Shown here in pieces: positions 2,999 to 44,100 of a stretch of DNA of 64,000 nucleotides. The translations under genes and the position numbers were made by a program. Location: NCBI RefSeq assembly GCF_001447785.1, contig NW_015171606.1, positions 1 to 64,000 of the forward strand, read 5' to 3'. The DNA comes from Gekko japonicus. Its lineage: Eukaryota. The notes under the pieces were generated by a model. The model was given only the letters and a program-made list of their open reading frames with translations. It did not search any database and was not told the origin of the DNA. Numbering within the stretch: position 1 is the first letter of the stretch; each line of letters begins with the position of its first letter.

Positions 2999-4079
2999 AT
3001 AAGATGTTGGTTATTACCTATCAAGACCTATTACCTATCAAGTTGGTTATTACCTATCAGGGCCTGAGAAGGTCAAAGAAACCTCAATGTGACTTCTTCA
3101 GTGTATCTGTCCTGTTTATGCGCCTGTTGGCTAAATTAGGAAAGGCCAGCATCTGTATCCTCCAGGGCCACTGTGGATGATGATCCAAGAGCCAGAAATA
3201 TGTGTTGGCTGCACAATTCAGACCCTTAAGAGCTGTCGCATTAGTTCAACTTTTGGATCCAGCTTTGTTTTTCTTACCAGTGATACTTTGGCCATCTCTT
3301 TTTAAGCACATCTTGGTTAATTGAACAAACAATTTCTACCCCATCTTGTAAAACAGATAGCAGTTTGTTTTATAGTTGGATCACTGGGCGGAGGTGGGGG
3401 GGGAGAGAGAGGTCTATCAAGTAAAAGCCAGCATGGCAGGGGTCATTTCCTGCAGGAGCGCACAGGAGCGGAGCTCCGGCAGTAAAGAGCCCAGGGGGCG
3501 GGCACGTGCAACAAGCCCCACCCCCTGCTCCCAGCAGCCCCTCAGTCAGAGCAAGAAGCAGCCAGGTAGGTTGCAGAGCTCCTCCCAGCCCCCCAGTCCA
3601 AAACAGTCCAGTGGCACCTTTAAGACCAGGTTTTATTCAGGTACAAGCTCTCCCTCCTCTGTGAGGGCAGATCTGCATGTCTCCCNNNNNNNNNNNNNNN
3701 NNNNNNNNNNNNNNNNNNNNNNNNNNNNNNATATTTGACTAGTTTCAGATCCCCAGTCGATGTTCAGTAGGTTGGCCAGGCATGCTCTCTCAGTTTAATT
3801 AACCTCACAGACTTTTTATGAAGATAAAACATGAAGGTCAACCTCCGTATGCTGTCTTGAGCTTCATTGAGGAAAGGTGGGGGGGTGGGCTTGAAAGGCT
3901 GATGTAGTAGTAAGAAAGGAGCTGAATTTGAGCATAACCCTATGTTCTTTCTGGTCCACCTGTGTATCCCAGTGATACTCTGCAAATCATGGAGAGTCAC
4001 ATTCACAGTTCTCATCAACCAAAAGATCCGTGTGACTGCTGTATGCCCTGCGTGCTACCCCAAACACACACAAACAGTA

Positions 4080-5613: not shown

Positions 5614-5822
5614 GGGGAGGGGCTATGGCTCAGTGGTAGGGCATCTGCTTGGCATTCAGAAGGTCCCAGGTTCAATCCCTGGCGTCTGCAGTTTAATGCG
5701 TGCAGTAGTACATGAGGTGAAAGACCTCTACCTAAGACCTCTGAGAGCCACTATCAGTCTGAGTAGCCAATACTGACTTTGGTGGAGCCAGTGGTCAGAT
5801 TCAATATAAGGCTGCTTAATGT
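5614..5822 (+). mobile_element. tRNA-Ala-like SINE with CR1-type 3' tail
   Basis: GGGGCTATGGCTCAGTGGTAG box A and GGTTCAATCCC box B; same family at 23730, 36135, 53066 and 57035. Confidence 0.8.
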
Positions 5823-6161: not shown

Positions 6162-6202
6162 TGCACTATGAGATTTTAATGTCAAAGTAGGCAGTTGAAT
6201 AT

Positions 6203-14100: not shown

Positions 14101-17100
14101 ATGGGGTGTGAACAATAGTATAGGTACATCAAATGGCAGCTAAATATTATATACATAGAAAAAGGGAAGTGTGAAATCAGAAAGATGTAGAACATAGAGA
14201 GGTATGGTAGATATCATTTTAACCAAAAAAATGACTCTATACATAGCGAGTATCTGAGCTTGACTGAACATAGCAAAGAGTCTGTAATATCAGGAACTAG
14301 GAATAAGGCCTGTTGTGGAGATACATACAACGAGCTCTAGAAAGAGGCTCTGGGTGGATGCACTGGTCTTTGGCACTCAGCGTCAATTTGCTGTGGTGAC
14401 CTCAGCAGGGTATTATGACACAGAGCTTACTGTTTTCTTCAGGGGAACTGATCTCTGCCATCTGAAGAGCAGTTGTAATTCTGAGTGATCTCCAGCCCTC
14501 CCCTGGAGATTGGCAACACTGNNNNNNNNNNNNNNNNNNNNNNNNNNNNNNNNNNNNNNNNNNNNNNNNNNNNNNNNNNNNNNNNNNNNNNNNNNNNNNN
14601 NNNNNNNNNNNNNNNNNNNNNNNNNNNNNNNNNNNNNNNNNNNNNNNNNNNNNNNNNNNNNNNNNNNNNNNNNNNNNNNNNNNNNNNNNNNNNNNNNNNN
14701 NNNNNNNNNNNNNNNNNNNNNNNNNNNNNNNNNNNNNNNNNNNNNNNNNNNNNNNNNNNNNNNNNNNNNNNNNNNNNNNNNNNNNNNNNNNNNNNNNNNN
14801 NNNNNNNNNNNNNNNNNNNNNNNNNNNNNNNNNNNNNNNNNNNNNNNNNNNNNNNNNNNNNNNNNNNNNNNNNNNNNNNNNNNNNNNNNNNNNNNNNNNN
14901 NNNNNNNNNNNNNNNNNNNNNNNNNNNNNNNNNNNNNNNNNNNNNNNNNNNNNNNNNCTGAACAGGAGCAAGCAGCCAGGGCTAGTGAAGTAATGCCAGT
15001 CAGGAGGCATGAAGTCACCCTGAGAGTGCTGGCAGGCCTAGGGTTGCCAACAAAGACAGATTGATGCAAAGGAGGATGGGAAAGTCTCCATATGCAAACG
15101 GGGGGAGTACGCAAACGGGGGGGAGTTTGAGGGGCGGAATGCAGTGAAGTCCAATCAGCTTCCATATGCAGATGACCTTGAAACGCTGGCCCAATCAGAG
15201 AAGAGTGGCCTAGGCTGCAGTGAGTGGGAGAGAACTCAGGCAACGCAGCCAGTGGATAGAGACACCCTGTGATTGACATATCACAGAGCCAACTAATTTT
15301 GGCGGGCATAGAATGTTGCCCTGCGAAAATTCTTTTATATATAAGGACAGGATTGTCATTATTGTGTCTTGACCTTAAAATACCACAGGTGTGCTTTAGT
15401 CTCTTGGTCGTGCCAATCATTGGTGGCTTTTCAAGAGAGGTGTGGTCTTGTTGGAGTGACTTGAACTTTTAAAATTGGATTTCTTCTAATTTACATCCTT
15501 ATAATTTGACCTACAAGATCCAGAAATCCAAGAATTGTCGCCTGGATTTTGGACAGCAGGTTGCCATGGCTATATAGGCTCCTTAGTGTGGAGCCGAAAT
15601 GTAATGTGAGCGAGGATTTGCATTGGTCAAGAGGCGCAATCCCAGATTAATCAATTTAATAGCCTGATCCACATAGCAACAACAAACTGTGGGTTGTTGT
15701 GAGGGACTTGTACTAGAGCTACTTGGTCTTCCTCCTGCGCTTGATTTGGAATTTGGAAGCCAATCATCTACTTGCACGGCAAACTGTAGTTTGTTACTTC
15801 TGGAGGCAACAGATCAAACTAATAATTTGTGAGTTAAGTGTAACGGCAGGCAATAGTTTGCCATGAAGAGATAAATTTCTGAGCCATGGGAGGAAGGGGA
15901 GAGGCACAGACTTACAGGTTTCCACAGTCTAAATCTCTGGCTGCTGATAAACAGAGGTAGGCACGAGCTTTGTGGGAAATGTATGATTGTGGCTTTTTTG
16001 TGACGCTGCTTCTGTGTCTTGAACAGCAGGTCAGAGCATCTAAATCTAGCATGTAAAGTGGGTTTTTTTTCTTTCTCTGTCTCTGGATGCTATTAAAGGC
16101 ACTGGTGCAGGGAGGAAAAAAAGCTTGGACATGAGGGTTGCCAGCTCTGGGTTGGGAAATACTTGGAGATTTTGGGGGTGGAGACTGAGGAAGGCAGGGT
16201 TTGGGGAGGGGATTTTAGTTGGACATAATGCCATAGAATCCACTTTACAAAGCAGCCATTTTCTCCAGGTGAGCTGATCTCTGTCGCCTGGAGATCAGTA
16301 ATCCCAGGAGATGTCCAGCCAACATCTGGAGGTTGGCAGCCTTGTTAGACACCCAAGTGAAGTGGGTGCGAATATGAGAACAGCCATTCAGTTCCATCCT
16401 TTGTTTCGAGCAGGGGTGCTCCAGGTGCCCCTGATGAGCCACTTCCTTTTTATCCTAAGCACCTGAGAGCCAGAGGTATACTGTCACTGTAAATGGAGGT
16501 TTAATTTAGCTGTCATGTTTTACTGCAAATTTAAAGTCCAATGGCACCTTTAAGACCAACAAAGGTTTATTCTAGGTATGAGCTTTCGTGTGCACGCACA
16601 CTTTATCAAATTTGTTGTCCTGCTTCAGACGAACATGGCTAACCAACTGAATTTTACTGCAGTTAATGATTTTGTCCTTCTCCTTGAATTTCTCAAAAAG
16701 TTTTTTTTAATTATGGAATTGATGGCATCATACCAATAGGAAAACCTGTAAGGAGTAATGTAGTAACTTCTCAGTTTGCCTTTAGATATTCATGACTGAG
16801 AGGATCCCCCCCCCAACTAACTCCAAATTCGTTTTATGGTAAAATGACTACCAGAAATCTAAGATTGGTTCTCATGGGCTGTCCTCTATCAAATTCTTTC
16901 TTTGGGGTTTTGATCAAGTAATGTCAAGGTTCACTTGTAATGCTGCTCACGGGGTGGGGGGGAGGCGTCAACCATTTTTCAAGAGCTCAGAGTTTGTTTG
17001 TTTCTTAAAAGCTGATTTATTCTTCCATGTTTGCATACTAGTACTTAGCTAAGGAACGCCGAAAATGCATTGGTTTTCTGAATGAGACTCTTGAGTTCAC

Positions 17101-20100
17101 ATTTCAGATGTCAGTCAGTTACCATTCGTACTTCCCAACTTAGTGGTCTCAAACCCAGGGAATCTTCCTTTACCATTTTTATTTTTCTGGTGCCACAGGA
17201 CTGCCCTTTCTTTCTTACTGAAATCTTCAGTTAACTGCATAAAACTTCGTTGTCTTATTTTTCGCACTGTTCAAAAAAGGGGAAATGAGAAACTGGGGGT
17301 TGGGAGGATGGTATTCAAAAGTGAAAACGAAAATTTTGTATATAACCCAACTGTTTTATGAGGTATGAGTAGGAATGCCAGCCTCCAGGTGGTAGTCAAA
17401 AATGAGAGCTCACGGGAGGAAGTGGAATTCCAAAAACAACTTCCATGACAAAAATAACGAAGAGTCAATAAAGATAAGTTGCAAAACGTATACTGTAGTA
17501 ATTTCTGTAGAAAAATTTCTTCTATTATCGCTCACACGCTATCGAATACTGCGCAATGAACAATTCGTTTCACAATATTTCACAATATTTGTTTTATCTG
17601 AAGAAGAAGAAGAGATTGGATTTATACCCCGCCCTTCACTACCCAAAGGTGTCTCAGAGTGGCTTACAAACTCCTTTCCCTTCCCCTCCCCACAACAGAC
17701 ACCCTGTGAGGTGGGTGGGGCTGAGAGAACTCTGACACAAACTGCTCTTTTTCAAGGACAGCTGTGCCAGAGCTTGTGACTGACCCAAGGTCACATCAGC
17801 AGGTGCAAGTGGAGGAGTGGGGAATCAAACCCGGTTCTCCCAGATTAGAGTCCGCGCACTTAACCACTACACAAAACTGCATCTGAGCATGTAGCAATCC
17901 CGATTCTTTTCAATTACTACTTATCAACTCTTGAAGGAAACATTCCATGTTGACTCCCTAATAACGGAACCCAAGGTCTTCACAGATAAAGCAAATATTG
18001 TCAAACGAATTGTTCATTGCACAGTATTAATTAGCGTGTGAGCAATAATAGAAGAAAATTTTCTACAGAAATGACTACAGTAAACGTTCTTGCAACTTAC
18101 CTTTATTGACTCTGTTATTTTTGTCACGGATGTTGTTTTTGAAATTCCTGGGTTACAACCCATCTCCAGGTGACAGATCACATGGAGAAAATGACCATTT
18201 TGGAAGGTGAACTCTATGCCATTATACCCCATTGAAGTCCTTCTCCAAACCCCACTCTCTGGCTCTCCCCACCCCCCAAAAAAATATCCAGATATTCTCT
18301 AACCCGGAGCTGGCAACCCTAAGTGAGAGGGAGAGGCAACTTTAGTATTTATTTTATATCATGAGGGAAATGCACTAACAGATATTTCGACCCTTTTGCA
18401 GAGTAATCGAGTCACCTTGAAGATGGATGTGTCTCACACAGAGCACTCTCATGTGATTGGCAAAGGAGGCAATAATATTAAAAAGGTGATGGAGGAGACG
18501 GGTTGCCACATCCATTTCCCAGACTCGAATAGAAATAACCAAGCGGAGAAGAGTAATCAAGTGAGTCTTCTCCAAGTCTCTTCATCTATTCTAGCCATAG
18601 ATATTGGTCAGGGCGTTGTTTTATTTCGTATTCAGAAGCGTTCCTCAAATAGAACTGCTCTACATTTTGAGGGAAAGATGGTGTTTAAGAGGATTGTCAA
18701 TGTTTGAACACTTCCCCATAAATAGCAGGTCAAGTGGTTTAGAACTTTTTGTTCTCTGATGTGCCAGTTTTCCACAGGCATTTTTTTAAAAATCTAGAGG
18801 ATTATTTTCTTGCAAACGTATCAATCTGCATTTCTAACTGTTTATTTTAGTTTCTTTATTTGTGTTATCTGTAAACAAGAACATAACAAAATGTTACAGA
18901 ATATTTTAAAAATGTGGTCAATGTTTTTGGAAGCTGAAGATTTGTATCCCACCCTTCACTCGGAGTCTCAGAGCGCTTACAAACTCCTTTCCCTTCCCCT
19001 CCCCACAACAGACACCCTGTAAGGTAGGTGGGGCTGAGAGAGCTGCCCTTTCAAGGACAGCTCTGACAGAACTAAGGCTTGCCCAAGGTCATCCAGCCAG
19101 GTGCAAGTGGAAGAGTGGGGAATCAAACCTGGTTCTCCCAGATTAGAGTCTATTCACTTAACTACCACACCAAACTGGCTCTCCAAATGTGGCGTTACAG
19201 AATATAACATATTTTATCTAGTTGTTGAATTCATGTTGTCCTCCACAGCTTCCCTCTCCCAAATTTGGCTACATATGCACATGCTCTCTCTTTTCTGTAT
19301 TGGCTGCTTGCCAGAGTTTTGGTTATCCAGTTTCTCCCTCTTCTGGGATTGTGTTCAATTTCCACTGTCTGGCAAAAATCACTTCAGCAGTTTACCACAC
19401 ATTAGGTGTGCTCACCTGAATTTTTGGAGTGCTGTCATCTCTAGAGGGCCATCCCTGGTACCCTTTCCAAATGCGTAGATTGGCCATCAGAGGCGGTACA
19501 AACTATATAAAACAAAACTGTTCCGGAGGGACATTTTTATAGAGGAAATAGGGCTGCATTATAAGAGAATGATTCAGGAAAATGTTTCAGTAGAGGAATG
19601 GGATTGCTGTATATTTTTATTGAGCTCCCACAGCATTATATTTCTACTTACATGATATCATTTCTGGCATTGTTTCACATTAAATGTTTAATATTTATGC
19701 CTTGTTTGAGATTTCTGCAGTCCTATTACATTGTTTGTCTCCTCATTCTATTGATTGCACTGACTTTCACTGTGCAATCTACGGAGAGCCAGTCTGGTGT
19801 AGTGGTTAGGAGCGCAAATTCTAATCTGGGAGAACCAGGTTTGATTCCCCACTCCTCCACTTGCAGCTGCTGGTGTGACCTTGGGTCAGTCACAAGTTCT
19901 CTCAGAGCTATTCTCTCAGGAGCAGTCTTCGAGGGAGCTCTCTCAGCCCCATCTCCCTAACAGGGAGTCTGTTGAAGACGCCAGTTAGGTGGGGGGCAGG
20001 ATCTCCGATCCCTTGTTGCTGCTCTGAGTAGTGGAGGGGGGTACTTAAAAACTGCAGCCTTGGGTTCTTCCCAGAAATTCTTCCCAGATGTGAAAAGGGG

Positions 20101-23100
20101 TAGTTATAGGAATTGCCAGATTCCTAGAGCTATCCTTTATCCTTTCTGGGTTTTAGCCAATATAGTGCTGCATGCAACAGCACAGCACCCCACTGGCCCA
20201 CCCAGAACCCTCTCGCTGGTTGCCAGGCCCTGCCTGTCAACCCTGGTAATCCACCTTGACTCACACTTAGTATGGCAGACTATAGATAACATACCAACAG
20301 AGTCCATTTTTAAGGGACACCCAAAGCTTTCTTTTTGCAGTTTGTACAATCACAACTCTTCTATAGGCGTTGTGCCTACAGTTATGCAAACAAACAAACA
20401 GAATAATCTGTCACACTGTACAAATTACACTAGAGACTTCTGTCTTCTTATACAGTTCTAATTACAAATATAAACAGTCTGCACAGTAATGGTTTTGCCA
20501 CTGTGCAGAAATATAACGTCTACACCAGTTGAATAGCTCCTGTCAACCTAGTAGTTCGAAAGCAAGAAATTGCAAGTAGATAAATAGGTACCACTTCGGT
20601 GGGAAGGTAACAGCGTTCCGTGCGCCTTGGTGTTTAGTCATGGCGGCCACATGACCACAGAGAAGTCTTCGGACAGCGCTGGCTCTTTGGCATGGAAACC
20701 AAGATGAGCACCGCCCCCTAGAGTTGGATTCGACTAGCTTTCGAGCACAGGAAACCTTTACCTAAGTCCTTGAAAGTACAAGTCTTTCTTTAGAATGATG
20801 CAGTCACCGGCTCACGATGCAGAGAGGTGTTTCAAATAGAAAACACAAAACAGACAGCGCAGGCTCAGGAATAGCCGCAACGTGAACCAAGGGAGTGGCA
20901 ACGGCATGCCTAGGTTGCTTCGCCATTCCTTAAGGCTTCATTAGGCTGCTTTCCTTAGTGATGGGGCTGCAAACATTAGACTTGCGGTAAATGACAGTCC
21001 ATTCTGTTGTGGTTGTGTGCCTGCAGTGGCAACCTTGAGCCAGTAACGGCAGCACCCCGTGATTTTACATAGCCAGATAAAATACTTGCCCAGCTGATTA
21101 TATGGTTTCAGATATGTTTCAAAGACCCGTGGCAATCTGTGATATGGAGCACACGTCTCTCATAAATCTCTCTAAACTCTTCCAAAGCTGCCTATCATCC
21201 AGTCTGATTTTGCACATAAAACAGTTTAAATACTTCTATCTCAGAATGATCTTCCAGCGCATCGCTTCCCAATTTCATGTCCTAAATTGTATGTTTTAGT
21301 ATTTAATCCTTAAATTTTATGAGAAGTGTTATAATTAGAAAATTGTTCTACAATATACTGGAGCTTCTGGAGGTACAGTTGCCTTTTAATTGTGTTTTTA
21401 AATATTAAGGCTGCCAGTAGAATTACAGCTTTGAATCAGAACCATACGATCATGGTTAGAATTGAATTTTTCCGATTTCCACAGGTGTCTATAGCAGGAC
21501 AGCCAGCCGGAGTTGAGTCTGCCAGAGCTAGAATACGGGTAAATATGGGACTGAAACTTGATATAATCTTCTGTAAGACACTTGAAATGAATCAGAATTT
21601 TATGCTAATTCTAATTACTTGTAGGCTTGCAGCTGAAGGAAATGTGTTCAGTCCCACAGTATGTGTTGCTTGCATGTACCAAAAGAACATTAAGGGTCAC
21701 ACAGGCTACAATCTGGAGACTTAAAATAGCCATTATAGCTGATCACATTCACTGTTGGCCCCTGCATGAGATCAGAGAATCCAGGGCAGTATCCCTATAA
21801 GCAGAAGGGGTGAACAGAGGGTATACGAAAAGGCCCAGCCTTCTGTAGTGCTGCTGCACATGGGGTGCATCAAAACTACACATTCTACGGATCACAGATC
21901 TTTGACTGACTTAGTTCCCCCCACCCATGTAATGGCATTCCCTAGTCAAAGGTTGCTAAAGCAGATAATAGTACTACAGCTGTGCATGGAAGCATTTTGA
22001 TTTGAGGGGCATGAGTACAATTCAGAGCTGTGTTCCAAATGTGTTTTTACAATATACCTCTCCCCTTCCCATATTTTATTTCCAAATCTGAGGAAAGATG
22101 ATGATGGAAGATCCTCGTGGTTCTTCTTTAAATGAAAGGGTACACATGTTCACCATTATTAAGGTCCTGAGCCTTCTGACCTACAACTTGGGTTTTATAT
22201 AACAGCTTATCCGTGGAAGTCCACCAAAGCCTTAAGCATAGAGGATCGAATAAAAACTTTGTGCTGCTTTCTAGTTCGCTTTCAGTGCTCTTTCATGTGT
22301 GTCCGTAGTATTTTATTATCATCTTATGTATGAACCACTGATTGAAGCTGATCTGTATTATGCCTTAAAATTTCATTTGATTGTATTGGGATCATTAGAA
22401 CTATGTGCTTTACTGTTCCTAAGAGTTGAGTTTTTATTCAGATGGTTAAACGTTTAGCAGGGTAACAATCCTGCTCCATTCTGGCCATGATTGCACAACG
22501 TAATTCCAGAAAGCAAGTTTGTATGCCACAGGAAAGGGCTCTTCAGGACACCTAATGCTCCACAATGTGCAACTTTGTGATAGGCTAAATAGGTTCTTAA
22601 TTAGTGCTGAGTATTTTCTGTGTTTGATTTGATCGTGTTCTAGGAGCTGCTTCCACTGGTCCTAATGTTTGAATTACCTATAGCTGGAATCCTTCAACCA
22701 ATCCCAGATCCAAATTCTCCCACCATTCAGCATATATCTCAGACATACAACATTTCAGTGTCTTTTAAGCAACGTTCCCGGACATATGGTGCTACAGTCA
22801 TCATCAGAGGATCTCAGAATAATGCTAGTGCTGTGAAGGTAATATCTGAAATCACTGTCATTGTTGTAAAGGTCAGAGTTCCAGTTTCCGTTTGACCAGC
22901 ATCTGCTTATCCCTGCTTGGCTTTTGTCTGGTTCGTAGTCACTCCCAGTGAGTATTGAAGCTATCCTAGATCTTGGCATCACATCCAATGGATTCATTCT
23001 TACAGATTCTTCAAGGTGGCTTTTAAACAAGAGGGAAGGGTGACTTCTATAACAAGACTTTTTCAAAAATATGCGGCATGCATGATAGACATAACCAAGT

Positions 23101-26100
23101 TTGAGTTTTCTGCAATTTGTAACTCTGTAGTATGCTTGTACACAGGGCTATTTTTGGGCAGGAACGCACAGGAACGGAGTTCCGGCTGGCTTCAGAGTTG
23201 GTCACGCCCACTACAGGCAAAACCCCCGCATGCATGGCTACAGAGGGAAGGCTTGGAGAGCGACCCCCCCTGGCCACTCCAAGGTGGGCGGGCCAGGGGC
23301 CCCCTGGAAGGATCGGGGAGTCATTTAAATGCCTCCCTATGCCTTCCCTGGCCTGTCCAAGGACGGGCTTGCTCGGGCAAGGCAAGGGAAGGCAGTTTAA
23401 ACTGCCTTCCCTTCCCTCCGAGGGCTGGCTTGCCTGGGCTCCCCGCAACTGTGGGGTGCCCAGGCAAGCCAAAGGAAGGTATGGGGGTGTGGCCTAATAG
23501 GCTAATGAGTTTCTGCTGTTGGGTGTGGCCTATTATGCTAATGAGTTCCTGCTGGGCTTTTTCTACAAAAAAAGCTCTGCTTGTACATATTTTCAGTTAT
23601 ATATCATCCATATATTGGGTTGGACTGAACCACCTTTTTGGCTGGTGAAAGAGGAAAGAGAGGATCTCCCTCGACAACAAGAAAGCCTGGTAGGGGTCAT
23701 GGGACCTACACAGACAAAAGACATGATGAGGGGCAATGGCTCAGTGGCAGAGCATCGGCTTGGCATGCAGAAGGTCCCAGGTGTTTGGGAAGACGTCTGC
23801 CTGGGACCCTGGAGAACTGCTGCCAGTCCGTATAGACAATATTGACTCTGATGGACCAATGGTCTGGTTCAATATAAGGCAGCTTCATATAACGTGTAGG
23901 ACGGGATGCAATAAGTAGGAGAACTGGACAAGATTATATTAAAGAGTTGGCTGGATCCGACTCATTCAGATAAAACCTAAACAAAGCCTAGGGATGCCAG
24001 TCTCCAGGTGGGGGCAGGGGATCCCCTGATTTTGTGGGTTCCTGCTGGCCAGCTGGCTGGCAAGGGAAACCCCACCTGTAACAGCAGCCACCCCCCTCTC
24101 TCCTCCTGCAAGATTTAAAGGACCCTCCAGCTGATCGGTGGGAACACATGGCCTGCTGATCAGCTGGAAGGCTCTTTAAATCTTGCAGAGAAGGGGGAGA
24201 AGAAGAAGAGGAGGAGGAGATTGGATTTATACCCCGCCCTTCACTAACCAAAGGAGTCTCAAAGCAGCTTACAGTCTCCTTTCCCTTCCCCTCCCTACAA
24301 GACCCACTCTGTGAGGTAGGTGGGGCTGAGAGAGCTCTCTCGAGAACTGCCCTCGAGAGAACAGCTCTGAAGGAACTTATGACTGACCCACAGTCGCACC
24401 AGCAGCTGCAAGTGGAGGAGTGGGGACTCAAACCCGGTTCTCCCAGATTAGAGTCCACACTTCTAACCACGACACCAAAGTAGCCACACACCTGGCCGCT
24501 TGGAGTTCAGGCGTGTGGAGCGCTGGCGTGCCCGCTTGCCAAAACCATTTAAAGGGAAGGTTCCCTTTAAATGGTTCTTGCAAACTGGCACCAATAGGGG
24601 GTGCATCCCTAGCATGACGATGTCACTTCTGTGTGATGTCATCGTGTTGAGGACATCCCCTCCAAGGAATGCCCCCCCAAAGTCCCCCGCCAGCAACGAG
24701 GCAGGACCTGTTAACCCTGACAAAGCCTGACAACTGTTAAGTGTGGAAGAAAAAAGTATTTTAGGTCCATGGGTATCTCCGATAGCGCTGATACCTTATA
24801 GTCAGATATCTTCTACACTTGATTTATTTGGAGAATTAACTGGCTGGTCTCAACACAAATTAATACAGGTTAATAACCTGTTAGGACCTGCGGTGGCTCA
24901 AGTGGTTAAGATGCTGAACTGCAGGCTGTGGAAGGTCAGTAGTTCAGCAGTTCAAGACCCGGGTGCCGCATGACGGAGTGAGCTCCCGTCTCTAGTTCCA
25001 GCTCCTGCCAACCTAGCAGTTCGAAAGCAAGAAATTGCAAGTAGATAAATAGGGACCACTTCAGTGGGAAGGTAACAGCGTTCCGTGCGGCTTGGTGTTT
25101 AGTCATGCCGGCCACATGACCACGGAAACGTCTTCGGACAGCGCTGGCTCTTCGGCTTGGAAACGGAGATGAGCACCGCAACCCTAGAGTCAGATTCGAT
25201 GGGCTTTCGAGCAAGGGAACCTTTACCTTTACTTTAATAACCTGTTGGACGGAAGATGGAATTTTATCCTGTGCGGAAGTATCAGAGAGAATGAACAGTG
25301 CCATCCGCCTCTTCCTTCAGTGCTTTCAGTTGAGAGCTACAGCACAAACAATGTGGAGGAAGGGATTGTTCAGTCAAAAACAATCTGAATTGTTATTGGA
25401 TCAGTATTAAAAGAACAAGTTGGAAGAACGTGCCAACTCTGGTATAAACTCCAGATTGAGGGATAATGCTACAAAAGACAAATGATGAAAAAATACCGGG
25501 TGTCCCATTTTACAGCAGGAGTGGGACTGAAGTTGGGAGAACAGCGATGCTTTTATAAATGAAATGGGATGCTTTTATAAACTTTAGTGAAGGTGGTTGA
25601 GGTTGGAATATATTTTTGACAATGATAGTAGAGGTTGTTGGCAACAATGAACTTGAAGAGGAGAATGTGCTATCGAGTTGCAACCGACTTGTGCCGAACC
25701 CCATCCATGAGGCATTCCAAGCAAGAGATGAGTGGAGGTCGTTCCCCATTGCCTTGCTCCTCATAGCAACCGGAGTCTTCCTTGGTGGTCTCCCATCCAA
25801 GTACTGACCCGGGCCAACCCTGCTTTAAACACTCAAGGTCTGATGAGCCTGAGCTAAGCTGGGCTATTTGGGCTAGAATGCAAACACAGATATAATGCAA
25901 GTGTTCTGGGAATGCCCATTAATACTGTTTTTGCAGTAACATCGTTTAGGTATCGTGTTGTTTTTAATTCAGATTAATTGAATACCTCTTGCCTTGCAGA
26001 ATGAGTAACCTGACTGCAAAAGCTTATCTCATTTTTTTTTCCCTTCAAAAAAAACAAACAGGAAGGAACTGCTATGCTTTTGGAGCACCTGGCTGGTAGC

Positions 26101-32100: not shown

Positions 32101-35100
32101 GTGCCAGAACTTGTGACTGACCCAAGGTCATCCAGCAGGTGCAAGTGGAGGAGTGGGGAATCAAACCCGGTTCTCCCAGATAAGAGTCCGCGCACTTAAC
32201 CACTACACCAAACTGGCTCTGATATTTATTCTCTGAAGGAGTATGAACACTGTAGTACCAGTCTCCAAGAATGAAATCTGCGCGCATATTTAAGTTTATG
32301 GAATATCCGCAGTCCTCCTGAAGACCGGGACCTGTGATTTTTGTCCCAGTCCTTGCCACCTAGAGGCACACCAAGGCTATATGGACTTAAACTCCCTCTC
32401 TCTGCAAAACAAGGACCTGCCTAGTAAATGAGCTTCCTTTCTTCCTGTTGGAGCAGTCCCCTTCTCATCTTTTCCATTCTTGATGTTAACTTTGGTTCTT
32501 CACTACACAAACGCAGTTTCTTATTACCATAAAATCTATATTTGAACATAAGAACGTAAGAGAAGCCAATGTTGGATCAGGTCAGTGGCCCATCCAGTCC
32601 AACACTCTGTCACACAGTGGCCAAAAATACCAGGTGCCATCAGGAGATCCATCAGTGGGGCCAGGACACTAGAAGCCCTCCCACTGTTGACCCCCCCCCC
32701 AAGCACTCTTTAAACAAAACATGTGTCTCGGACAAAGCAATTTACAAATGGCTATTTCCCACTGTTTACATGGGTTTGTGTTGGTGTACATGCTTTTTTT
32801 TTTGCCCCCCCCCCCGAAGGGGAATTTTTTATTTTTTTGCATTTTCTACACACTACAATTATGGGATAGGGGAAGGGATACTAATACCCTAACACTAATA
32901 CTATGGGTGATGGGTAAAAGAGCTCTTATACATATATATCTACTTGATAGGGAAAGGAAAACTATCATTCTAATCTATTTCATCTACTGGATTTGGAGAA
33001 AGGAAGTCTAATACATGTCACGATCTGGATAGTTGAAAAAATAATGCTTTTTAACCTAATATAACAGGTGATACAAAGATTTGATTCAATTATGATAGTA
33101 CACATTTAATAGCTTAACATAATTACTGCCTTTAGTACTATTGTCTTAGTTCTAGAGTCTTGTCTTCTTGCGTTTCTTCGTTTTCAGGAGTTTGGGGGCA
33201 GCCTCTCCTTTCTCCGATTCAGATGATTCTGATGATGTGGAATTTTGGCTTATTGAATCCTGTGAGTAGGATTCTTCTTCTTCCTCCCTATCTGGTTTGA
33301 AATTCTTTTCCTTCTGCTTCTTTTTTATATTAAACATTTGATCCATAAATGTTTCCACTTTTGGCACAGAGTCAATTTTATATTTTTTGTTCTGATAATT
33401 GAAGCTCAGCCCTTCCAGGAATAACCATCTGTATGGTATTTCCTTTTTTTGCAGAGTGAGAGTAAGCATCCTGTAGCCTTTCCTCCATTTTCTAACTTCA
33501 AAAGGGATGCTTTTAAAATTTTTATGTCTTCATTCTTGATTCATTGTTGACTAACACCAGTTCTCTGGTAGCTCGTTTCATGAATTTTAGTTAGGTTTCC
33601 CCTCGGAGTTTGTTTTTCTTTATAAATTCCGGATAGGTTCTGTAAGCCACATCCATTTCTTTTATTAAATCTTCTTGTTTATAATCCATTAATGGGACCA
33701 AGGCAACCCCCAAAAGTTCTTTTAAATCCTTGTTCTTCTCTTCAAGGATCCCATGGAAACATAGAACGTACATGGATCTTTCCAGCTGGAGCTGTATTAG
33801 TTGCATTTTATCAGAGGATCTCTCCTTCTCTGCTTCATCCACTCTTTTGTTAATGCTCTCAGTCTGTTTTTCCATCTTTTTCAACATTTTCTCAGTTGCT
33901 GAGGTTCTTCTATCCATTTGATTCAATTGTTTTTGGCCATTGTCCAGCTTAGTGTTGAGGTTAGTCATCTGATCCATTAGGGGGCGCAGTGCATTTGCTA
34001 GCAATGAAGAAAAGTCTGTAGTTACTTCCTGGTTCTGGGAGGGAGTCGTTGGTATGTTATTTCCGGTCCCCAGTTTTTTCCCCGGCCCCCTCCGTCCTCT
34101 CCCAGCCATAATATCAACAAGCAGTAAGTTTTCCAAAACAAGACAAAAGTTATGCGATTTAGTCCCGCTTTGTATACTTTAGCAGTTTTTGCATTCGCTT
34201 AACTTCTTATGCGTTTATTNNNNNNNNNNNNNNNNNNNNNNNNNNNNNNNNNNNNNNNNNNNNNNNNNNNNNNNNNNNNNNNNNNNNNNNNNNNNNNNNN
34301 NNNNNNNNNNNNNNNNNNNNNNNNNNNNNNNNNNNNNNNNNNNNNNNNNNNNNNNNNNNNNNNNNNNNNNNNNNNNNNNNNNNNNNNNNNNNNNNNNNNN
34401 NNNNNNNNNNNNNNNNNNNNNNNNNNNNNNNNNNNNNNNNNNNNNNNNNNNNNNNNNNNNNNNNNNNNNNNNNNNNNNNNNNNNNNNNNNNNNNNNNNNN
34501 NNNNNNNNNNNNNNNNNNNNAGTGCCTTGGAAGAGACTCTCCTCAGCTCCCCAGGCTGGGGGTCTCCTACAGAGACCCCAGGGAGGTCCGGGATGAACTC
34601 GGACCCCTCCTGTCAGCTGGGTCTCAGCGCGTCTCCACCAGAGCGAGACGGGACGCGTCCAAGCAGTGAAACGCTTAGACCGGAAGTCCATGTTGGTGTA
34701 CATGCTGAGCATGAAACCATGGTTAACTTAAAGGAAGAAGGGAGTGGTTAATAAATGTTCATGAATCTGCTTCATTTGCAAACTGTAGCTTTTTGGGAGC
34801 CAACATTGCATGTATGTTCTGTTTGGAGTGTTACACAGTTGGGGCAGGGGTATCAGTTGGTATGGGATACATAATTCAGAAGTCCCTCAACTTGGAAATG
34901 GAATCATTAGTGGCATGCAGTGATGCCACTGTCTTTCCAAGATGCGGGGGGGGGGATGTTAGTCTAGGTGCTGTAGAACATCTTGTTGGCTAATCTTGCT
35001 TTAAAAATGAGGAAAAGATAGAAAAAAGGAAAATTAACAGTCTTGGGTAATGGAGCTGTAGAGGCCATGATAGGAGGAGGGAGTTTGTTTGGCTATACAC

Positions 35101-38100
35101 ATCAAAAATTGGCCAGTTATCAAATGACTGAGTATAATTCTAAGTAATATTTACATAAGAAATGGATTTTTGTTTAAATGTCAATTTACCCCCTCTTTTG
35201 AAGTCTTACAAAATATAAACTTTGATTCAATAACTGTGTATTTTATCCTGTAACTGTTAGAAGAAGCTAGCTGCATTTTAGTGTTTCCGTATTGTAAAAG
35301 TCTTTAAAAAATTAGAAAACTCAAATATGTTTGAGGGCATGTGCGCTTTTTATTATGCATGCCGGAGGATGAATTTAATTTAAGTGTAGGTTTGTAAGCA
35401 ATTCCTCTTGCACTTGTTGCCAACTGTATCAAATTGTTTGAAATATTTATTGTACTCTCATTATTGTGTATTTCTTCCCCCCTCCCCCTTCTTTACAGTC
35501 TGTAATCGTGAAAAGCGTTGAGCGAAATGCCTTAAACATGTACGAGGCACGGAAATGTCTCCTGGGCCTTGAAAGCAGTGGAGTTGCCATAGCAACGAGC
35601 CCATCCACAGTCTCCTGTCCCATTGGCCTCTCGTGTCCTGGCTTGGATATCCTATCCTCAGCTGGGCTAGGACTCACTGGACTCGGTACAAACCGTTATG
35701 CTTGTGTTCATAATATTTTTTAAAACTTAGCCTAACGATGTGCAAAAAAATGAGCTATGTGCCTGAGATCCAACAGGGGAAATGGAAGTAATTGTGTTTG
35801 TCTTAGACATGGGAAATAAAGGGATTTAGGCCTCTGTTGGTTGGTCAGCAGTGAAGACTGGAACTGTTGAAATAGAATGTGCAACAGGGAAGAATTGGAT
35901 AAAACGTTTGGACTTTTTAAAAAACTGATGTGCCAAGTTCCCAAAGTTGGCTCTTGATCCCACTATTTATTTATTTATCTATCAAACTTTTACCCCGCCC
36001 TCCCGCCAAGGTGGCTCAGGGCGGCTTACAAATAATTAATACCAGTATACAATTAAAACCAGATTAACATTTGAGGGGTAGGGAGGGACGTTGCAGCTCT
36101 CAATTTAAATCCATTGTACATACATACATATGATGTGTGCATGAAGCTGCCTTCTGCTGTATCCGACCATCACTCCCTCGGGGCCAGTATTGTCTACAGG
36201 GTGGGATAAAAATACCTAAATCAAAAAATAAAAATCACTCCCTCGGGGCCAGTATTGTCTACTCAGACTGGCAGCAGCTCTCCAGGGCCTCAGGTTGAGA
36301 TCTTTCACATCACCTACTACCTGATCCTTTTAACTGGAGGTGATGGGGATTGAACCTGGGACCTTCTGCATGCTAACCAGTTACTCCACCGCTTAACCAT
36401 GCCCCCCTCCCGAGTTCGATTACTTGGTGAGAGGAGCTACCATTCTGGGGGCTGTGGTTTTTAGTGTGCTACTCTTCAAGAATGTCAAGGAAGCAAAGAA
36501 TATCATGTATCCTTCCATTTGGTATCAGATAGGAATAATTTGAATGAATGACTTTCCCCCAAAACATTGTTTAACCATTTCTGTACAGGCATTTGTAACT
36601 GGTCTCTTATTTTTGGTGCAGGTCTCTTGGGTCCCACTGCCTTGTCCGTCAACACATCCACTACTCCAAATTCTCTCCTAAATGCCCTTAATAGTTCTGT
36701 CAGTCCTTTGCAAAGTCCTAGTTCAGGCACACCTAGCCCAACGTTATGGGCCTCTTCCATTGCCAATACAAGTGCCACAGGCAAGTATATTATCTTCACG
36801 TGCTGTTAAAAAGTAAGGTTTTTGAAGCAAGACACTTTTTTGTTTCAGATATCAAAGGAAGAATTGTATTAATCTGGAAAGGACTTCTGTTCTCTTGCTT
36901 GCAGGATTCTCTGCTATTCCCCACCTGATGATACCATCTACGGCCCAGGCCGCTTTAACTAGTATACTTTTGTCCGGAGTGCCAAACTATAGTCAGAACA
37001 CACCCTCTCCCCCTCCCGGCTTAACCCCAGTTGATATCCATGTCAATGGCATACAAACAGAAAACAAGAAAAGCCAAACTTCTCTGAACGGCCATGTAAA
37101 GGTAAACAAGGTGACTTTAATCTATAAGCTATCAAAATCAAGACTTGCAATGCTTAGATCAGGAGTCCCAACCTTTTTGGACCTGTGGGCACCTTTTGAA
37201 TTCTGACACAGGGTGGTGGAGGGAGCCACAAAATGGCCACTATGGGAGGCAAAGCCGACCACGCATGCATGGGAGGCCCAAGTGCAAGAGAGGAGAGCAG
37301 TCAATTTTAAATAATGCATCGGGGAAGAGGAGTCAGATAAAGAATAAAGCCAACGGTATTGGCAGTTGTTGCTGAAATGTTATTTTAATCTGAGCAGCTG
37401 TCAGGGCCCCGGTCAAATCACTCTTCGCACACACTTTCTTGGTTGAAAGTTTTATTAGAAGATATGAGATGTTTAGGGAATGACTTCTTTTGTCAGAACT
37501 GAGGTGCAAAGGCAGGAAAGGTGAATGTAGTTACAATCACACATTCCATTCATACACGTCAGCAATCTACTCGGACCATAGGAATAGGGGCCCTCCTGTA
37601 GCTAATCAAAGATGTTTCTCCAAGGACATCTCCCCGTGTGAAACGATGTCTTGTTGGGGCTCCATAGAAGAGCTACAGCTGCAAGCGTCTACTCCTACAC
37701 ATGTGTTCTCACTCACACTCTCACTCCCCTCGCCTAGCAATGCGATGGCAGGCGAGGGTAAAGATAAACCCACTAGAATACACTTTGTGGGGGTGGGTAA
37801 GCCAGGTTAGAGCAGGGGGAGATACATCAGGGAGTTTTGAATGGCAATAAAACACCTACATATGATCAATCAACCCGAGCCTGACAACAGCCACTCAGAT
37901 TGCCCATGGGCAATTAGAAGCCCTACTGGGCGGGAGCCTACCTGGCCCCGCCCACTTTCTAAAAGCACTTGACGGGCACCAGGAGTGGTGTTGGCAGGCC
38001 CCAAGGCACACACCCCGGGCGCCACCTCGGGGGACCCTGCTTTAGATTGATTCGTTTTTAAAAAGCATCGATTTGAAAAGTTCCACAAGTAGGACAGAAC

Positions 38101-41100
38101 ACTACTACTATTATTATTTTAACATTTTGAGATCTCAGCCTAACAATTACAAAATGTGACAATAGTGTCTAGGTAAGTGGAAGGCTGGGGTCTGCTTCTA
38201 GTCATTATCTAAGGGGAAGGTCAGGGGTCGCAAGAGGTAGCCATGTTAGTCTGCGGCACCTTGAAGACTACAAAACTCATTCCAGTGTAAGTCTTATTGT
38301 GTGTCATGGGTAGGCTTGCCAAGTCCCCTCGGGGGGCGGGGAAAACCCTGCCCCAGAGGCCCGTTCCCCACCGGCGGCGGATTGGGCCCCAGTGGGAACC
38401 CCACCCCGACATCCACGTCACCCGGAAGTGATGCGACCACGCTGGGGGCGGGGCCACGGTCATCTGAGGGAAAACACTATGGTTTTCCCTTGGATGGTCG
38501 TGGCCCCGTGCCCGGCGTGGTCGCGTCACTTCTGAGTGACATGGATGCGGCGCGCGCGCACTCCAGCCGCCAACCGGGAGTCCCCCGCTGCGGTGAAAAT
38601 CAGACTTGGCAACCCTAGTCATGGGCCAGTCCACCAGATGCATGGAGTGAGTGTCCATAACAGTTAATTTTGGGGTTGCATGCAGCAGGCAGCTTTGGGG
38701 AGATGTTACAAAGAGAGAAGAGGCCACTTTGAAACTGTAACCAATTACTGCAATAGAGGGATCAGTCCACGCAGAGGTGGTTAAAGGAGCCCACTCCTGA
38801 CTGCAGAAGAGGGCAGAGTAGTATAAACATAAGATCTAATCAAGGAAGATATACTGTGAAGCCAGAGAAGCAGAATTAAAAGCTGCAAAGGGTGTGGGGT
38901 CTTGCTGAGCTTTTGATGCCTGCAGTGAGTGAGGGAACTAACTGGGGATGAAATAGTATTGAGTCTACTTGAGTCGGCATATCTTCCTTGGTGCACAAGG
39001 GGATGTGGGTTAAAAAGACTGGGTAGCTCTTACTGCAATCCGGATCCCCAAAAAAATTAGCTAGGCAGAAGCCTCTTTGAAATACCGGACTCACAGTAGC
39101 GATGTCTTCTATTTCAACAGAGCAACTACAACTAATCTTTTTTTGTTTGCCGTTGCACAACAAGTAAACGTTGTTTTAAAACCATGATCGATAAAATGTG
39201 TGTGCTTGCTCTGGTCGGCACCGCAGTGAAGTGAACCCGGAAACAAAACCGACTGCGGAACCAGGGCCGGCTCGCCCGCTAGCCAAACTAGGCCTTCGCC
39301 TAGAGCATGAGCCAGCCGTTAGGGCACGGGAGGAGAGGCAGGGGTGGCCGCCGACGCTCCTGGCCAGCAGCTGGGAGGAGCGCCAGGGCTGGAGGAGCTC
39401 TGCCGGCTGCAGTGTGGGCAGGGCGCGGCGCTGTAGCTGGCCGGCGGAGGAGCAAGCGAGGGGGTGGAGGCAGGGGCGGCCGCCAGCACGCCTGGCCAGC
39501 ATGGGCAGGGCACGGTGCTTTCCTTCCCCCCCCCCTGTGCCTCTCCTTGATACAGGAAAGTGGGGGGGGAGGATAAGGGAGACCTTCTCCTCCTCCCCCC
39601 CCCCGTCGAGAGGGCGTGCCTTGGGAGGTGGGGGGGGGCCCCACCGTGTCCCCCCACCCCCCAATTTGCAGTTATTATTCCCCCTCACACAGAGAGAGAG
39701 AGAGAGATGCCGACGGGGCCACGCTGCCACCTCGCCTTCCCTTCCCTCCCCCTCAAGGAGGCGCGGACTCACCAGGGCTGGGGGGGAGAGCCCGCGTCTT
39801 CCCTCCCCCAGGGGGTGGCGGCAGCACTTTCTCCTCCCCTACGTGAGGCGAGGCGGAGAGACTACAAAAGCCACCGGGCTTGGCTGCCCGGCTCGGCTCT
39901 CTTCCCCGCCCTGGCGGAGCTCTGAGGCTCCCGCTGCTCCCGCTGCTCCCGCTGCTCCTGCTGCCTGCCTCTTTCCTTCCTTCCCGCTCATCCCCCATCC
40001 ACTTCCAGGCCGCTCCCCCTTCGCCTTCCTCAGGCAGGCGGGCTGACTGACTGAGCCGCTTGCTCGCTCCCTCACTTGCCTCCTTTCCTCCCTCCCGGGG
40101 CGCACCCTGGGAGACGCCACTCCGCTCCCCTCTTCCCTCAGCTGCAAGGGAAGCCGGCCCTGGCTGGTGGGGCCAGCCCACAGTCTCCCTTTCCCTCCCT
40201 CCCTTCCCGCCTCAGGCCGCTTTCCTACTCGAGCCTGGCGGGGGGGGTGAGGCGGCAGTGCCTGCGGTGGGGGCAGAGGGAGAGTGCCACCGCCCCACCG
40301 CGTTCGCCGTTCTGGGGGCGGGCAAGCGGCGGGTCTCTCCCCCTCCCTGGCGGGCCTCTCCAGGGTGCCCCCACACGCTCCACACACACCCCGCGCGCTG
40401 TCTCCAGGCCCCGCCGGGAGCTTGGCATCTGCTCTCACGTAGAGCGCAGGACAACCTCGGGCCGGCCCTGTGTGGAACTACATCGCTGAGATTAGGCTTG
40501 ATTCTCTAGGGCTTCCATTTGATTCTGAGCAACAAAGTAGGCAAGGGTGCAGTTAGCCGTGACTCATTGGGAGAGTCAAAACCTGCATCTCCAGTAGCAG
40601 AGAGCAGATCACGGCTCCTTATAAGTGAATCGCCGCAATCCACTTCTGATGGGGAGAAAAAATAAAACACAGTGCTGTTGTGTTTGGGAACCAAATCTGC
40701 TCCTCGGCACTGTTGCTGCGTGGGTTTGCTTTCCCCCCCAACAGGCATCCCCGAAAGGTTGGATGCAGCTGTCAAGAGACTAGATCCTATGAACTTCCAG
40801 CCATGTCCTTTATTGCGTGTTGTTACAGGAGTCTTGCAAGCTGAAAATAAAAAGGGGTCGAAGCGATACACTGGGGGGGGGGGGGGTATGGTACTTAATC
40901 AGTTGCTTCAATAAAATTATTTTGAAGTCCAAGATGATGATTTAAATGTTCTTGTACCAATTCTAGACTTCAGCCATGAAGTACACAGCTCTGTCTGCTG
41001 CATCACTCGGTGAGAATGTATTGAGTTCAAACCACAGCGATCCATCCCGGCAGATGAGTAGCCATAATGCCTCCGAACAAGTGACGGCCAAGGCAAACGC

Positions 41101-44100
41101 TGGAGAAGGTGGAATAAAAAATTAGCATGATGCATTCTTTATGTCGCTTTGTTTTTTTTTATTTTGGAGAGTCAGCATTTCCCTCTCAGGACATTCAGGA
41201 TAAATGTAATAATTGCACGGGGTTGACAAGGGAGTCTGAACATCATCTGAGCACAAAGTTAAGAGTGGGCTTAGTCAAGACTCTCTGGTCTTGCAAAATT
41301 CAGTTAGGGACCCAAGATAAAATTGCTTGGTGTGAAGCAATGTCCATTTGCTGTTCTTTTCTATAATATTCACAGTGAGTCTTTACAAGGTTTCATTCTG
41401 AGCCTCGCAACTGAAGTTCTGTTAATTTCACAATGTATGAATGGTGGTAAAGTGGCCATTAACAGGAAGGCCGTAATCCTCATGGTCTCTCTTGTTAATG
41501 TTGTCGAAGGCTTTTACGGCCAGAGTTCATTAGCTGTTGTAGATTTTCTGGGTTGTATGGCCCGGGTTGTATCTTTCTGCGTTATACCTCTGAGAACGCC
41601 AGTCACAGTTACTGGTGAAACGTCAGGTCCTACAGGGTCAAGACCACGGCCATACAACCCGGAAAATCTACAGCAGCTAATCTCTCTTGTTACTTCAAAT
41701 AAATGCATGTTGCTGATTCCATAGGTATAGATGCGTGTCTCTAGATTCTTTTATCTTAAAAAGAAAATCTAGCTAACATGGCCCCAAATCTGACTTGAAG
41801 GAACGTTGAATTCTTGAGACTCTGTTTAAATAATACAAACTGAATATGATTGTGTATAATTCTACTACTTCTGGCAAGATGCATAACTGAGATGAAGACT
41901 AGGTGCATCCCCAGTGGCTGTTCAGAGCCTTAAATGCTGCCAACTTCCTTTCTCTAATGAAAGTTCTGCTCTGGGATTTCACTCTTCCACAGCATGATTA
42001 CAGAATGCACAATCTCCCTGACCGCAGGTAGAACATTAATTCATTTGTTAACAGATCCAGTTGGTCAGCTGTGTTGGTCCGAAGCAGTACAACAAATTTA
42101 GAGTCCAGGGGAACCTTTAAGACCAACAAAGGTTTATTCAAGGTGTGAGCTTCTGTGTGCACACACTCTTTATCGAATACCTTAGAATGGCATGCTAGGT
42201 TCAAACTCATAGCCAGAGAATGAACAACAAATTAACATGTAACATGATGATCATCAAGATATGCAAAGTGACACTAAATAATAAATCAAGGTTATAGGGT
42301 CAACAGTTGTAAAGCAATAAATATGTCAAACTAGCAGAAAAAATGTCTAAAGGTTTCTTTTCTAATTGTGGGAAGTGTCTGGGAATCTTCATTCTCCCCT
42401 GTCAGGCATGGAGGGCACTTAACACTACCTCCCCCTCCAAAAAAATGCTGTTATGTCAGCACACATGTATGCAAGGGATATTAGGATGTATTTGATACTT
42501 CCCTTTATTATAGGTCACTGTGGCTCAGAGGTTAAAGACACTGAGCTGCAGATCGGAAGGTCTGTAGTTCAGCAGTTCGAGACCCTAGTGCCATGTAATG
42601 GAGTCAGCGCCCGCCTCTGGCCCCAGCTCCTGCCAACCTAGCAGTTCAAAAGCAAGAAATTGCAAGTAGATAAATAGGTACCACTTAGGTGGGAAGGTAA
42701 CAGCATTCTGTGTGCCTCCACATTTAGTCATGACCACGGAAATGTCTTCGGACAGCGCTGGCTCTTTGGCTTGGAAACGGAGACGAGCACTGCCCCCTAG
42801 AGTCGGATTCGACTGGCTTTCGAGCAAGGGAAACCTTTACCTTTTATTATAGGAATGGAACGGAACGTGGCCAGGGATAGACCTGCTTCACTTAGGAGGC
42901 AAGAAAACTTTATCAAATAAATCGACAAGTAATAATGAATAGCAATTGGAAAAATTAATTTGGGGTTAAGAGGCGTAAGAAAAACAAAAGTTGTATGAAT
43001 TGTATAATGATATATTTTCGGAATGTAGAATTAAGTTTGTGGGAACATTCCCAACTGGATTATAAATATAGGACAATAGATATATTAGAAATCAATCCAA
43101 TTTGGGCATATTGTAGGTTATCTTTGATAAATTAGTTTAAATGTTATTCCTTCCTTTGTTATGATGTTTTGTATAAACTTGCATTATGGGAATTAAACGC
43201 AAAATAAAATATTAAAAAATGCAAGAAAACTTTATCAAAAACGTATTTGATAAAGTATGCGTGCACACAAAAGCTCATACCTTGAATAAGCTCATACCTT
43301 GAATAAACCTTTGTTGGTCTTAAACGTGCCATTGAACTCTAAAATCATTTGTCAACAGTTTACCTAAGCTTCGTGGGTTCAGTATTGTAAAAAAGATCCG
43401 GTCGCCTCTGTTCGTGGCAGGGTTTTCCCTTAGTCTTCAATCATCCCCATGGGATTCCCACTTACATATGTCTGTGCATTGTTTTTCATTTGTTCCTTGC
43501 AGGGTGCAACGATGCTTTTGTGGAAGTGGGCATGCCGAGAAGCCCTTCGCATTCTGCAAATGCCAGCGACCTGAAGCAAATGATGAGTTCCTCCAAGCCG
43601 CCCTGTGCGAAGAGGCAGACCGTAGAGTTGTTGCAAGGCACCAAAAACTCGCACTTGCAGTATGTTGCATTCATAAGTATGAGACCATAGAAAGTGCAGT
43701 GGGGACAATCGGTTGCCCTCTTGAGTGGAATGAGCTGCTCGGTCATTTGTGATCCCCCAGTTTTTGTCCTCATGGTCCATGCACAGATTCAAGCCTGGTT
43801 CCGGGTTTTGGGGTGCCCTGGGCAAAGTGCACCTGACCACTGCCAGGCCCTCCCTTCTCACACCCCTTCCTGCTAAGCCCGCATGGGGTGAAATGGCTAC
43901 ACCTGTGACAATCCCTCAACAACACACACCTAGCCGAGGGGCTTTTTGTTCCTTCTTGAGAGTCGTATCTGTGTCGTAACACTTACGTAACACTCTGTTT
44001 TCAAAGTGGTTTAAGGACGTCGTGGTGGTGGTGGCTTATAGTCCAGGCTTATAGTTATAGAGAAAGAGGTACTTTTCTCCTTTTCTCACAATACAAGAAC

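What the first reader, a model, noticed from the sequence alone, without database searches (positions are those of the whole stretch)
16575..43280. Penelope-associated hammerhead family with a compensatory U3:A8 catalytic core
Seen in sequence: three Penelope-like remnants carry the same minimal type I hammerhead layout. 16575-16612 (-): TTGATAA-A-GTGTGC-GT-GCACAC-GAAA-GC-TC-ATACC. 42140-42183 (-): AAGGTAT-TCGATAA-A-...-GCACAC-AGAA-GC-TC-ACACCTT. 43243-43280 (+): GTAT-TTGATAA-A-GTATGC-GT-GCACAC-AAAA-GC-TC-ATAC. A fourth relative at 13727 has the canonical CTGAAGA. All three variants change both C3 to U and G8 to A. Established: C3 and G8 form a Watson-Crick pair needed for catalysis, U3:A8 is a tolerated swap, and Penelope pLTRs carry minimal hammerheads. 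Inference: a shared double change points to a retroelement subfamily that spread with a functional non-canonical core (ancestral UCGAUAA or UUGAUAA). CUGANGA-based motif searches would miss such a family.
Basis: partly seen in the sequence, partly recalled or inferred. Interest (0 to 1): 0.7.

Follow-up and report, generated by a model that had tools for sequence, protein, structure and literature searches.

The report
Penelope hammerhead lineage with swapped core
The three motifs are decayed ends of a Penelope-type jumping-gene lineage with hundreds of genomic copies that all inherited a U-A pair in place of the usual C-G pair in the core of a predicted self-cutting hammerhead RNA, a swap already described in flatworm elements, so this is a new example of a known thing and cutting remains untested.

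Summary
Observation confirmed. The motifs are ends (pseudo-LTR plus tail) of an RT + GIY-YIG Penelope-like element. The swap marks a lineage, not independent decay. With one upstream flank, 86 of the first 100 of 371 copies are U3:A8. With the sister flank, 87 of the first 100 of 530 are C3:G8. The U3:A8 clade is well supported and younger. UUGAAAA is commonest, UUGAUAA marks the crown, and UCGAUAA is a sporadic decay. All three window copies carry disabling changes. U3-A8 cores are in print for natural hammerheads (PMC3088659) and for Schistosoma Penelope elements with the same heptamers (PMC4209133). This scan noted them before on other DNA (85 notes, at least 21 genomes). What may be new: a vertebrate example with both states in sister lineages, and 15 of 371 U3:A8-flank copies carrying C3:G8 where 0.6 are expected, mostly already so at insertion. 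Cleavage is untested, and no read or copy ends pile up at the cut site. Interest 0.3.

The parts
16575..16609 (-). U3:A8 minimal hammerhead motif (U3 16609, A8 16604, C17 16580). Core, stem II and stem III are intact; the 5' strand of stem I is missing.
16526..16649 (-). Whole short insertion: inverted tail (about 16610-16649) joined to hammerhead plus ORF-start segment, between 10-base direct repeats (16652-16661 and 16518-16527), a likely target-site duplication
   Evidence: read from sequence
42053..42490 (-). Longest window copy: about 290 bases of post-ORF pLTR, decayed U3:A8 hammerhead (U3 42176, C17 42147; U4C, G12A, A13G) and full tail, with a short inversion at its 5' end. Crown lineage.
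   Evidence: (89.5% to L061 over 362 nt)
43230..43345 (+). Short copy: U3:A8 core (U3 43247, A8 43252, C17 43276), G12A, a 17-base tandem duplication across the cut site, and an upstream inverted stub (43230-43239) predicted to pair with the core
13700..13762 (+). C3:G8 hammerhead remnant (C3 13727; G12A, U17) of a different pLTR family, with a truncated opposite-strand partner arm at about 13490-13600
3604..3640 (-). Tail-only fragment of a related Penelope pLTR near an assembly gap

Best explanation
These are 5'-truncated, decayed end pieces of a protein-coding Penelope-like retrotransposon (reverse transcriptase followed by a GIY-YIG endonuclease) whose younger lineage carries an inherited U3:A8 pair instead of C3:G8 in a minimal type I hammerhead that likely cut the element's own RNA weakly, as a dimer or with protein help. 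Shown: element type, lineage-wide swap, younger age of the U3:A8 lineage, decay of the window copies. Inferred mechanism: the element is transcribed from tandem or host read-through RNA. The hammerhead sits at the start of the reading frame, and a cut after C17 would fall about 16 bases behind the likely start codon, so cleavage would trim multi-copy transcripts and limit translation rather than being a required step of insertion. Reverse transcription starts at two sites about 60-70 and 95-115 bases past the cut site and often stops at stem I, giving the stubs and inversions seen. The swap likely arose once in a source element and was kept through several successive source generations because a pair at 3-8 preserves the active fold. 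C3:G8 later re-entered the lineage several times, most likely by short recombination with the C3:G8 relatives.
For: [quoted passage not shown] With core positions free and no flank anchor, the first 100 of 329 hits are U3A8 62, C3G8 27, U3G8 3, C3A8 1, other 7 (hand tally). Flank B, first 100 of 371: U3A8 86, C3G8 5, C3A8 5, U3G8 3, other 1. Flank A, first 100 of 530: C3G8 87, U3G8 6, C3A8 4, U3A8 1, other 2; Fisher p 1e-43. In a tree with positions 3, 7 and 8 masked the split is supported 100/99, with 0 U3A8 among 28 flank-A rows and nested starred clades of U3A8 copies. Median end branch is 0.072 (A), 0.055 (other B), 0.041 (crown); A versus B p 0.0002. The frame from the loop-II NTG is open for 36 codons in 41 of 49 copies, the other frames closed in 49 and 46 of 49, as in Anolis PAc where the ORF starts in stem II (PMC11167929). 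3' ends are bimodal. U3-A8 hammerheads are stated to be active in vitro (PMC3088659 passage).
Against: No cleavage was measured. No pile-up of RNA read ends at C17 in three randomly fragmented RNA-seq runs of a possibly different species (table 6: none). No pile-up of copy ends at the cut site (0 of 30 end there; 2 of 259 tails start there, in a biased set). In PAc the hammerhead was dispensable for insertion in vitro (PMC11167929), so U3:A8 could be neutral. Conservation of stem II and everything downstream can also be explained by coding and RT-initiation constraints. One origin is one event: copy counts are not independent evidence of selection. The data reject a single clean C3G8/U3A8 split (AU p about 1e-86). 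No intact or full-length copy was seen among the loci fetched.
Confidence: 0.75

Rival explanations
1. Dead ribozyme carried along: the two changes were fixed in a source element by drift, the motif no longer cuts, and the lineage spread because cleavage is not needed for retrotransposition.
For: Hammerhead mutants do not affect PAc insertion in vitro, and no reads ended at its cut site (PMC11167929). Naiad and Chlamys PLEs thrive without canonical hammerheads (PMC8557442 passages). No cut-site ends here. Both changes are common transitions.
Against: The two fixed core changes are exactly the pairing partners. Unpaired states stay near background (C3A8 2 and U3G8 1 of 100, against U4C 3 and A6G 4 of 100) and are post-insertion changes (partner arm U3A8 in 7 of 7). 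The other core positions stay unchanged in the majority of rows through the nested clades.
Confidence: 0.2
2. The three window copies are independent decays of a CUGANGA family.
For: C-to-T and G-to-A are common changes, and each copy has other decay.
Against: In flank-A copies the double change is seen in 1 of 530, whereas it is the majority state in flank-B copies, and the 42140 copy sits in the U3:A8 crown clade.
Confidence: 0.01
3. For the C3:G8 copies inside the U3:A8 lineage: they come from bridging or revertant source elements (the flank changed before the core, or the core toggled under selection) rather than from recombination or gene conversion with C3:G8 relatives.
For: In 3 of 4 such insertions with an inverted partner arm, both arms have G8, against 0 of 7 concordant for single changes. 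Their tails are B type in 9 of 9 scored, and a non-paired control pair in the tail shows the A-type double state in 0 of 99 scored B rows. Several keep B-specific loop II. They are rarer in the crown (1 of 100) than overall (15 of 371).
Against: They are scattered as singletons in different nested clades, including two long crown copies (L087, L140) that are not sisters. Position 7 changes along with 3 and 8 in those crown copies, which fits a copied tract. One pair of arms is discordant (L144).
Confidence: 0.4

Closest known systems
U3-A8 minimal hammerheads of Schistosoma mansoni Cercyon Penelope-like elements (Cervera and De la Pena 2014, PMC4209133; abstract, results, discussion and part of methods read, supplement file 2 searched)
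   Same: Type I minimal layout, bulged base before stem II, G10.1-C11.1, palindromic two-pair stem III, mostly solo truncated copies, and the same core heptamers UUGAUAA and UUGAAAA.
   Different: Vertebrate host and a Poseidon-like element; the vertebrate rows visible in the supplement passages all have CUGA cores. Here the C3:G8 sister lineage is about 75-80% alike in the flank, so the swap can be placed on a tree.
PAc / Poseidon_Ac of Anolis carolinensis (Frangieh et al. 2024, PMC11167929; main text to methods read)
   Same: RT plus C-terminal GIY-YIG, hammerhead overlapping the ORF start, two RT start sites giving a 30-40 base tail.
   Different: PAc has C3 and G8 and is active and transcribed; this family is decayed (4-8% end branches) and mostly U3:A8.
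Natural U3-A8 hammerhead core variants (Perreault et al. 2011, PMC3088659; passages read)
   Same: C3-G8 to U3-A8 covariation, called compensatory and active in vitro.
   Different: Described there for several hammerhead examples, not traced within one retroelement family.

Membership tests
Minimal type I hammerhead of metazoan PLEs | Core 3-UGAN-8-A ... GAAA ... UH with Watson-Crick 3-8 pair | tested here: met
   Family majority U3:A8 with other core bases intact. The window copies 42140 and 43243 individually fail at G12.
Minimal type I hammerhead of metazoan PLEs | Stem I of 4-5 bp, long stem II with 5' bulged base, loopless palindromic stem III | tested here: met
   L074 folds stem I (4 bp plus extension) and stem II. 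Stem III AGCU is read from sequence; it was not formed in the predicted dimer, which pairs through stems I and II instead.
Minimal type I hammerhead of metazoan PLEs | Self-cleavage after H17 (as dimer or protein-assisted) | not testable with these tools
   No assay possible; read and copy ends gave no signal.
EN+ Penelope-like element (Penelope/Poseidon architecture) | Single ORF with RT followed by C-terminal GIY-YIG endonuclease | tested here: met
   Broken ORF pieces in L061: RVT_1 E 4e-4, below the curated cut-off; Atlas GIY-YIG clusters 0.95. Pfam did not hit the endonuclease piece.
EN+ Penelope-like element (Penelope/Poseidon architecture) | 5' truncation, inverted pLTR arrangement and optional 30-40 base tail | tested here: met
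   Inverted arm pairs, bimodal 3' ends, truncation series.
EN+ Penelope-like element (Penelope/Poseidon architecture) | Placement in the Poseidon clade by RT phylogeny | not tested
   No reference RT set was fetched.
Non-LTR retrozyme (non-coding tandem repeat) | Non-coding monomers in tandem arrays | tested here: not met
   Copies are dispersed and collinear with a coding ORF end; one short tandem of motifs was seen, in L106.

The most novel reading that the evidence does not exclude
A vertebrate Penelope lineage switched its ribozyme core to U3:A8, and the 25-fold excess of C3:G8 cores inside that lineage, one-directional and mostly present at insertion, is a genomic fossil of RNAs from the two lineages pairing through their palindromic hammerhead stems, with reverse transcriptase switching templates at the ribozyme. 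That would be sequence evidence that Penelope hammerheads dimerise in vivo and that only paired 3-8 states are propagated.
Probability: 0.15. Interest if true: 0.6.

Novelty: new member of a known kind. Interest (0 to 1): 0.3.

Why it matters
The role of hammerheads in Penelope elements is open: they cut weakly, and in the one reconstituted element cleavage was not needed in vitro. A compensatory swap caught between two close sister lineages in one genome gives a natural matched pair for assays and hints that the fold was maintained in source elements. It also shows that CUGANGA-only searches miss a large share of this family (62 of 100 sampled intact motifs). The swap itself is known, and the window copies are relics, so the gain is modest.

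Tried and rejected
Rfam scan: no hammerhead hit at E up to 10. Pfam missed the endonuclease piece. UCGAUAA as ancestor: rejected. Fossil cut marks, a lead from note e1-8643110: not seen here, though the set is biased towards core-bearing copies. No listed holder is on record as RNA. Raw RNA reads of organism A carry the U3 and A8 letters (run X21: C at position 3 in 160 of 444 reads, G at position 8 in 194 of 592), with both orientations equal and a reference-biased lay, so this shows presence in RNA only. Laying DNA contigs on L140 to confirm its mixed core in other samples gave no spanning piece; it did show crown-type flank in runs of three organism labels. Loop-II variants as a sign of assembly error or conversion: dropped, because they occur in about half of 20 unselected U3A8 copies and follow subclades. 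The tail as template for the reversion (it is complementary to the C3:G8 core at 10 of 11 bases): does not explain G7 or C7 copies, and no tail-type core appeared in the 100 rows. A single crossover with flank-A elements: rejected by B-type tails. Lunse et al. 2017 and Przybilski and Hammann 2007 are not held; they may already show vertebrate U3-A8 variants or give rates. Supplement file 1 of PMC4209133 was not searchable. Paper searches found no vertebrate U3-A8 Penelope report and no report of template switching at the hammerhead.
Full report
Observation. Rfam has no model that hits them. Each window copy is damaged, as read from the sequence: 16575 lacks the 5' strand of stem I, 43243 has G12A, a stem II mismatch and an upstream stub that folds onto the core, and 42140 has U4C, G12A and A13G. 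The 13727 copy has a different upstream flank and also G12A.

What the element is. Thirty loci around exact hits share an upstream sequence of variable length. Two long ones are 85.6% identical over 1.5 kb. In L061 the upstream DNA holds broken frames with RT motifs (Pfam RVT_1 E 4e-4, under the cut-off) followed by a 107-residue domain whose nearest Atlas clusters are GIY-YIG (0.95), ending about 430 bases before the hammerhead. The domain recurs in other long copies. Copies are 5'-truncated and often have an inverted partner arm. Their 3' ends fall in two groups about 60-70 and 95-115 bases past the predicted cut, and a frame starting at the NTG in loop II is open for 36 codons in 41 of 49 copies without indels (of 76 that reach the tail). 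This matches the Anolis Poseidon element PAc, in which the ORF starts in stem II and two RT start sites make the tail (PMC11167929).

Is the swap a lineage trait? With positions 3, 4, 7 and 8 free, 329 copies match, and the first 100 listed are U3A8 62, C3G8 27, U3G8 3, C3A8 1, other 7 (hand tally). Classing copies by an upstream flank independent of the core gives flank B, 371 hits, first 100: U3A8 86, C3G8 5, C3A8 5, U3G8 3, other 1; and flank A, 530 hits, first 100: C3G8 87, U3G8 6, C3A8 4, U3A8 1, other 2. Trees with positions 3, 7 and 8 masked split the two with 100/99 support (61 of 136 rows; 93 of 232 rows; rows with short flanks were left out and rare states were oversampled on purpose). 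Flank-B copies have shorter end branches (median 0.055, crown 0.041, against 0.072), and the other related pLTR remnants seen here and the reptile rows in PMC4209133 have C3G8, so U3:A8 is likely the derived state; the trees are unrooted. UUGAAAA dominates the older subclades and UUGAUAA the crown, where the 42140 copy sits. The other two window copies are too short to place. Crown-type flank is also held in DNA runs of three coded organisms, and U3 and A8 letters are in RNA reads of one.

An unexpected excess. Among all 371 flank-B copies, 32 have C3 and 26 have G8: 15 C3G8 (14 insertions), 17 C3A8, 11 U3G8. The singles predict 0.57 doubles. The reverse is rare: 1 U3A8 among 530 flank-A copies (p 1e-5). 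In 100 rows with the core wholly free, singles at 3 and 8 (2 and 1) are no higher than U4C (3) or A6G (4), while doubles number 3 (hand tally). Where an inverted partner arm exists, singles are discordant in 7 of 7, while doubles share G8 in 3 of 4. The doubles keep B-type tails (9 of 9 scored), and a non-paired control pair in the tail never shows the A-type double state (0 of 99 scored B rows). They are scattered through nested clades, and one clean split is rejected. In the crown they are rarer, 1 of the first 100 of 111. I read this as short recombination with C3:G8 relatives at or before insertion, with bridging or revertant source elements as a close rival; the data do not separate these. 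Separately, 7 of 30 copies chosen without an upstream anchor lose homology within 11 bases 5' of U3, and the next break is at 32. Stem I's 5' strand therefore looks like a place where RT leaves the template, perhaps by cDNA fold-back (inference).

Mechanism. By established knowledge C3-G8 is a Watson-Crick pair of the active core (PMC3884650 passage), U3-A8 variants are natural and active in vitro (PMC3088659 passage), and minimal PLE hammerheads cut poorly, as dimers (PMC4209133) or with the element's protein (PMC11167929). The most likely function is weak, dimer- or protein-dependent cleavage just behind the ORF start, trimming multi-copy transcripts and damping expression, and not a required step of insertion. 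This is inferred; nothing here measures cleavage, and I found no ends at the cut site in reads or copies.

Comparison and novelty. Cervera and De la Pena reported U3-A8 minimal hammerheads in S. mansoni Penelope elements, about 1,300 hits, with the same two heptamers. The scan's own notes hold 85 findings with these words in at least 21 genomes and 7 hammerhead notes in this genome; none matched this stretch by sequence. My paper searches found no vertebrate U3-A8 Penelope family, but Lunse et al. 2017 could not be read. Verdict: a real feature and a new member of a known kind, interest 0.3. The re-entry of C3:G8 is the one part that could become more interesting (probability 0.15 that it records in vivo dimerisation).

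Noticed in passing
L001-L030; window 16610 and 43243: 5' truncation hot spot at the 5' strand of stem I: 7 of 30 unanchored copies end within 11 bases of U3 and none between 12 and 31; both short window copies end there too.
   Followed up: partly
L034, L121, L138, L146, L149, L175, L178, L191, about 40 bases past the cut site: A recurrent 2-base insertion at the same tail position in unrelated copies of both lineages; possibly a repair or nicking hot spot.
   Followed up: no
tail, about 60-70 bases past the cut site (e.g. window 42080-42092, -): The tail is complementary to the C3:G8 core region at 10 of 11 bases, a possible switch-off pairing; it was not compensated in the U3:A8 lineage.
   Followed up: partly
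loop II, e.g. window 16595 (-): The first codon of the open frame varies among ATG 27, GTG 12, TTG 8, CTG 2 of 49 copies; some subclades would need a non-AUG start.
   Followed up: partly
L106:900-1130: Four hammerhead motifs in tandem 47 bases apart plus one on the opposite strand; a natural multimer context.
   Followed up: no
window 42899-43239: An A+T-rich insert of about 320 bases between 19-base direct repeats directly upstream of the 43243 copy, likely the 3' end of another retroelement.
   Followed up: no
window 5619-5690, 23730-23810, 53071-53143, 57936-58007; 6045-6163, 25758-25880, 52357-52456: tRNA-like and 5S-rRNA-like Rfam hits, likely heads of SINEs.
   Followed up: no
window 24096-24200 and 24532-24587: Two long fold-back hairpins hit by miRNA models far below threshold; possibly MITE-like inverted repeats.
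   Followed up: no
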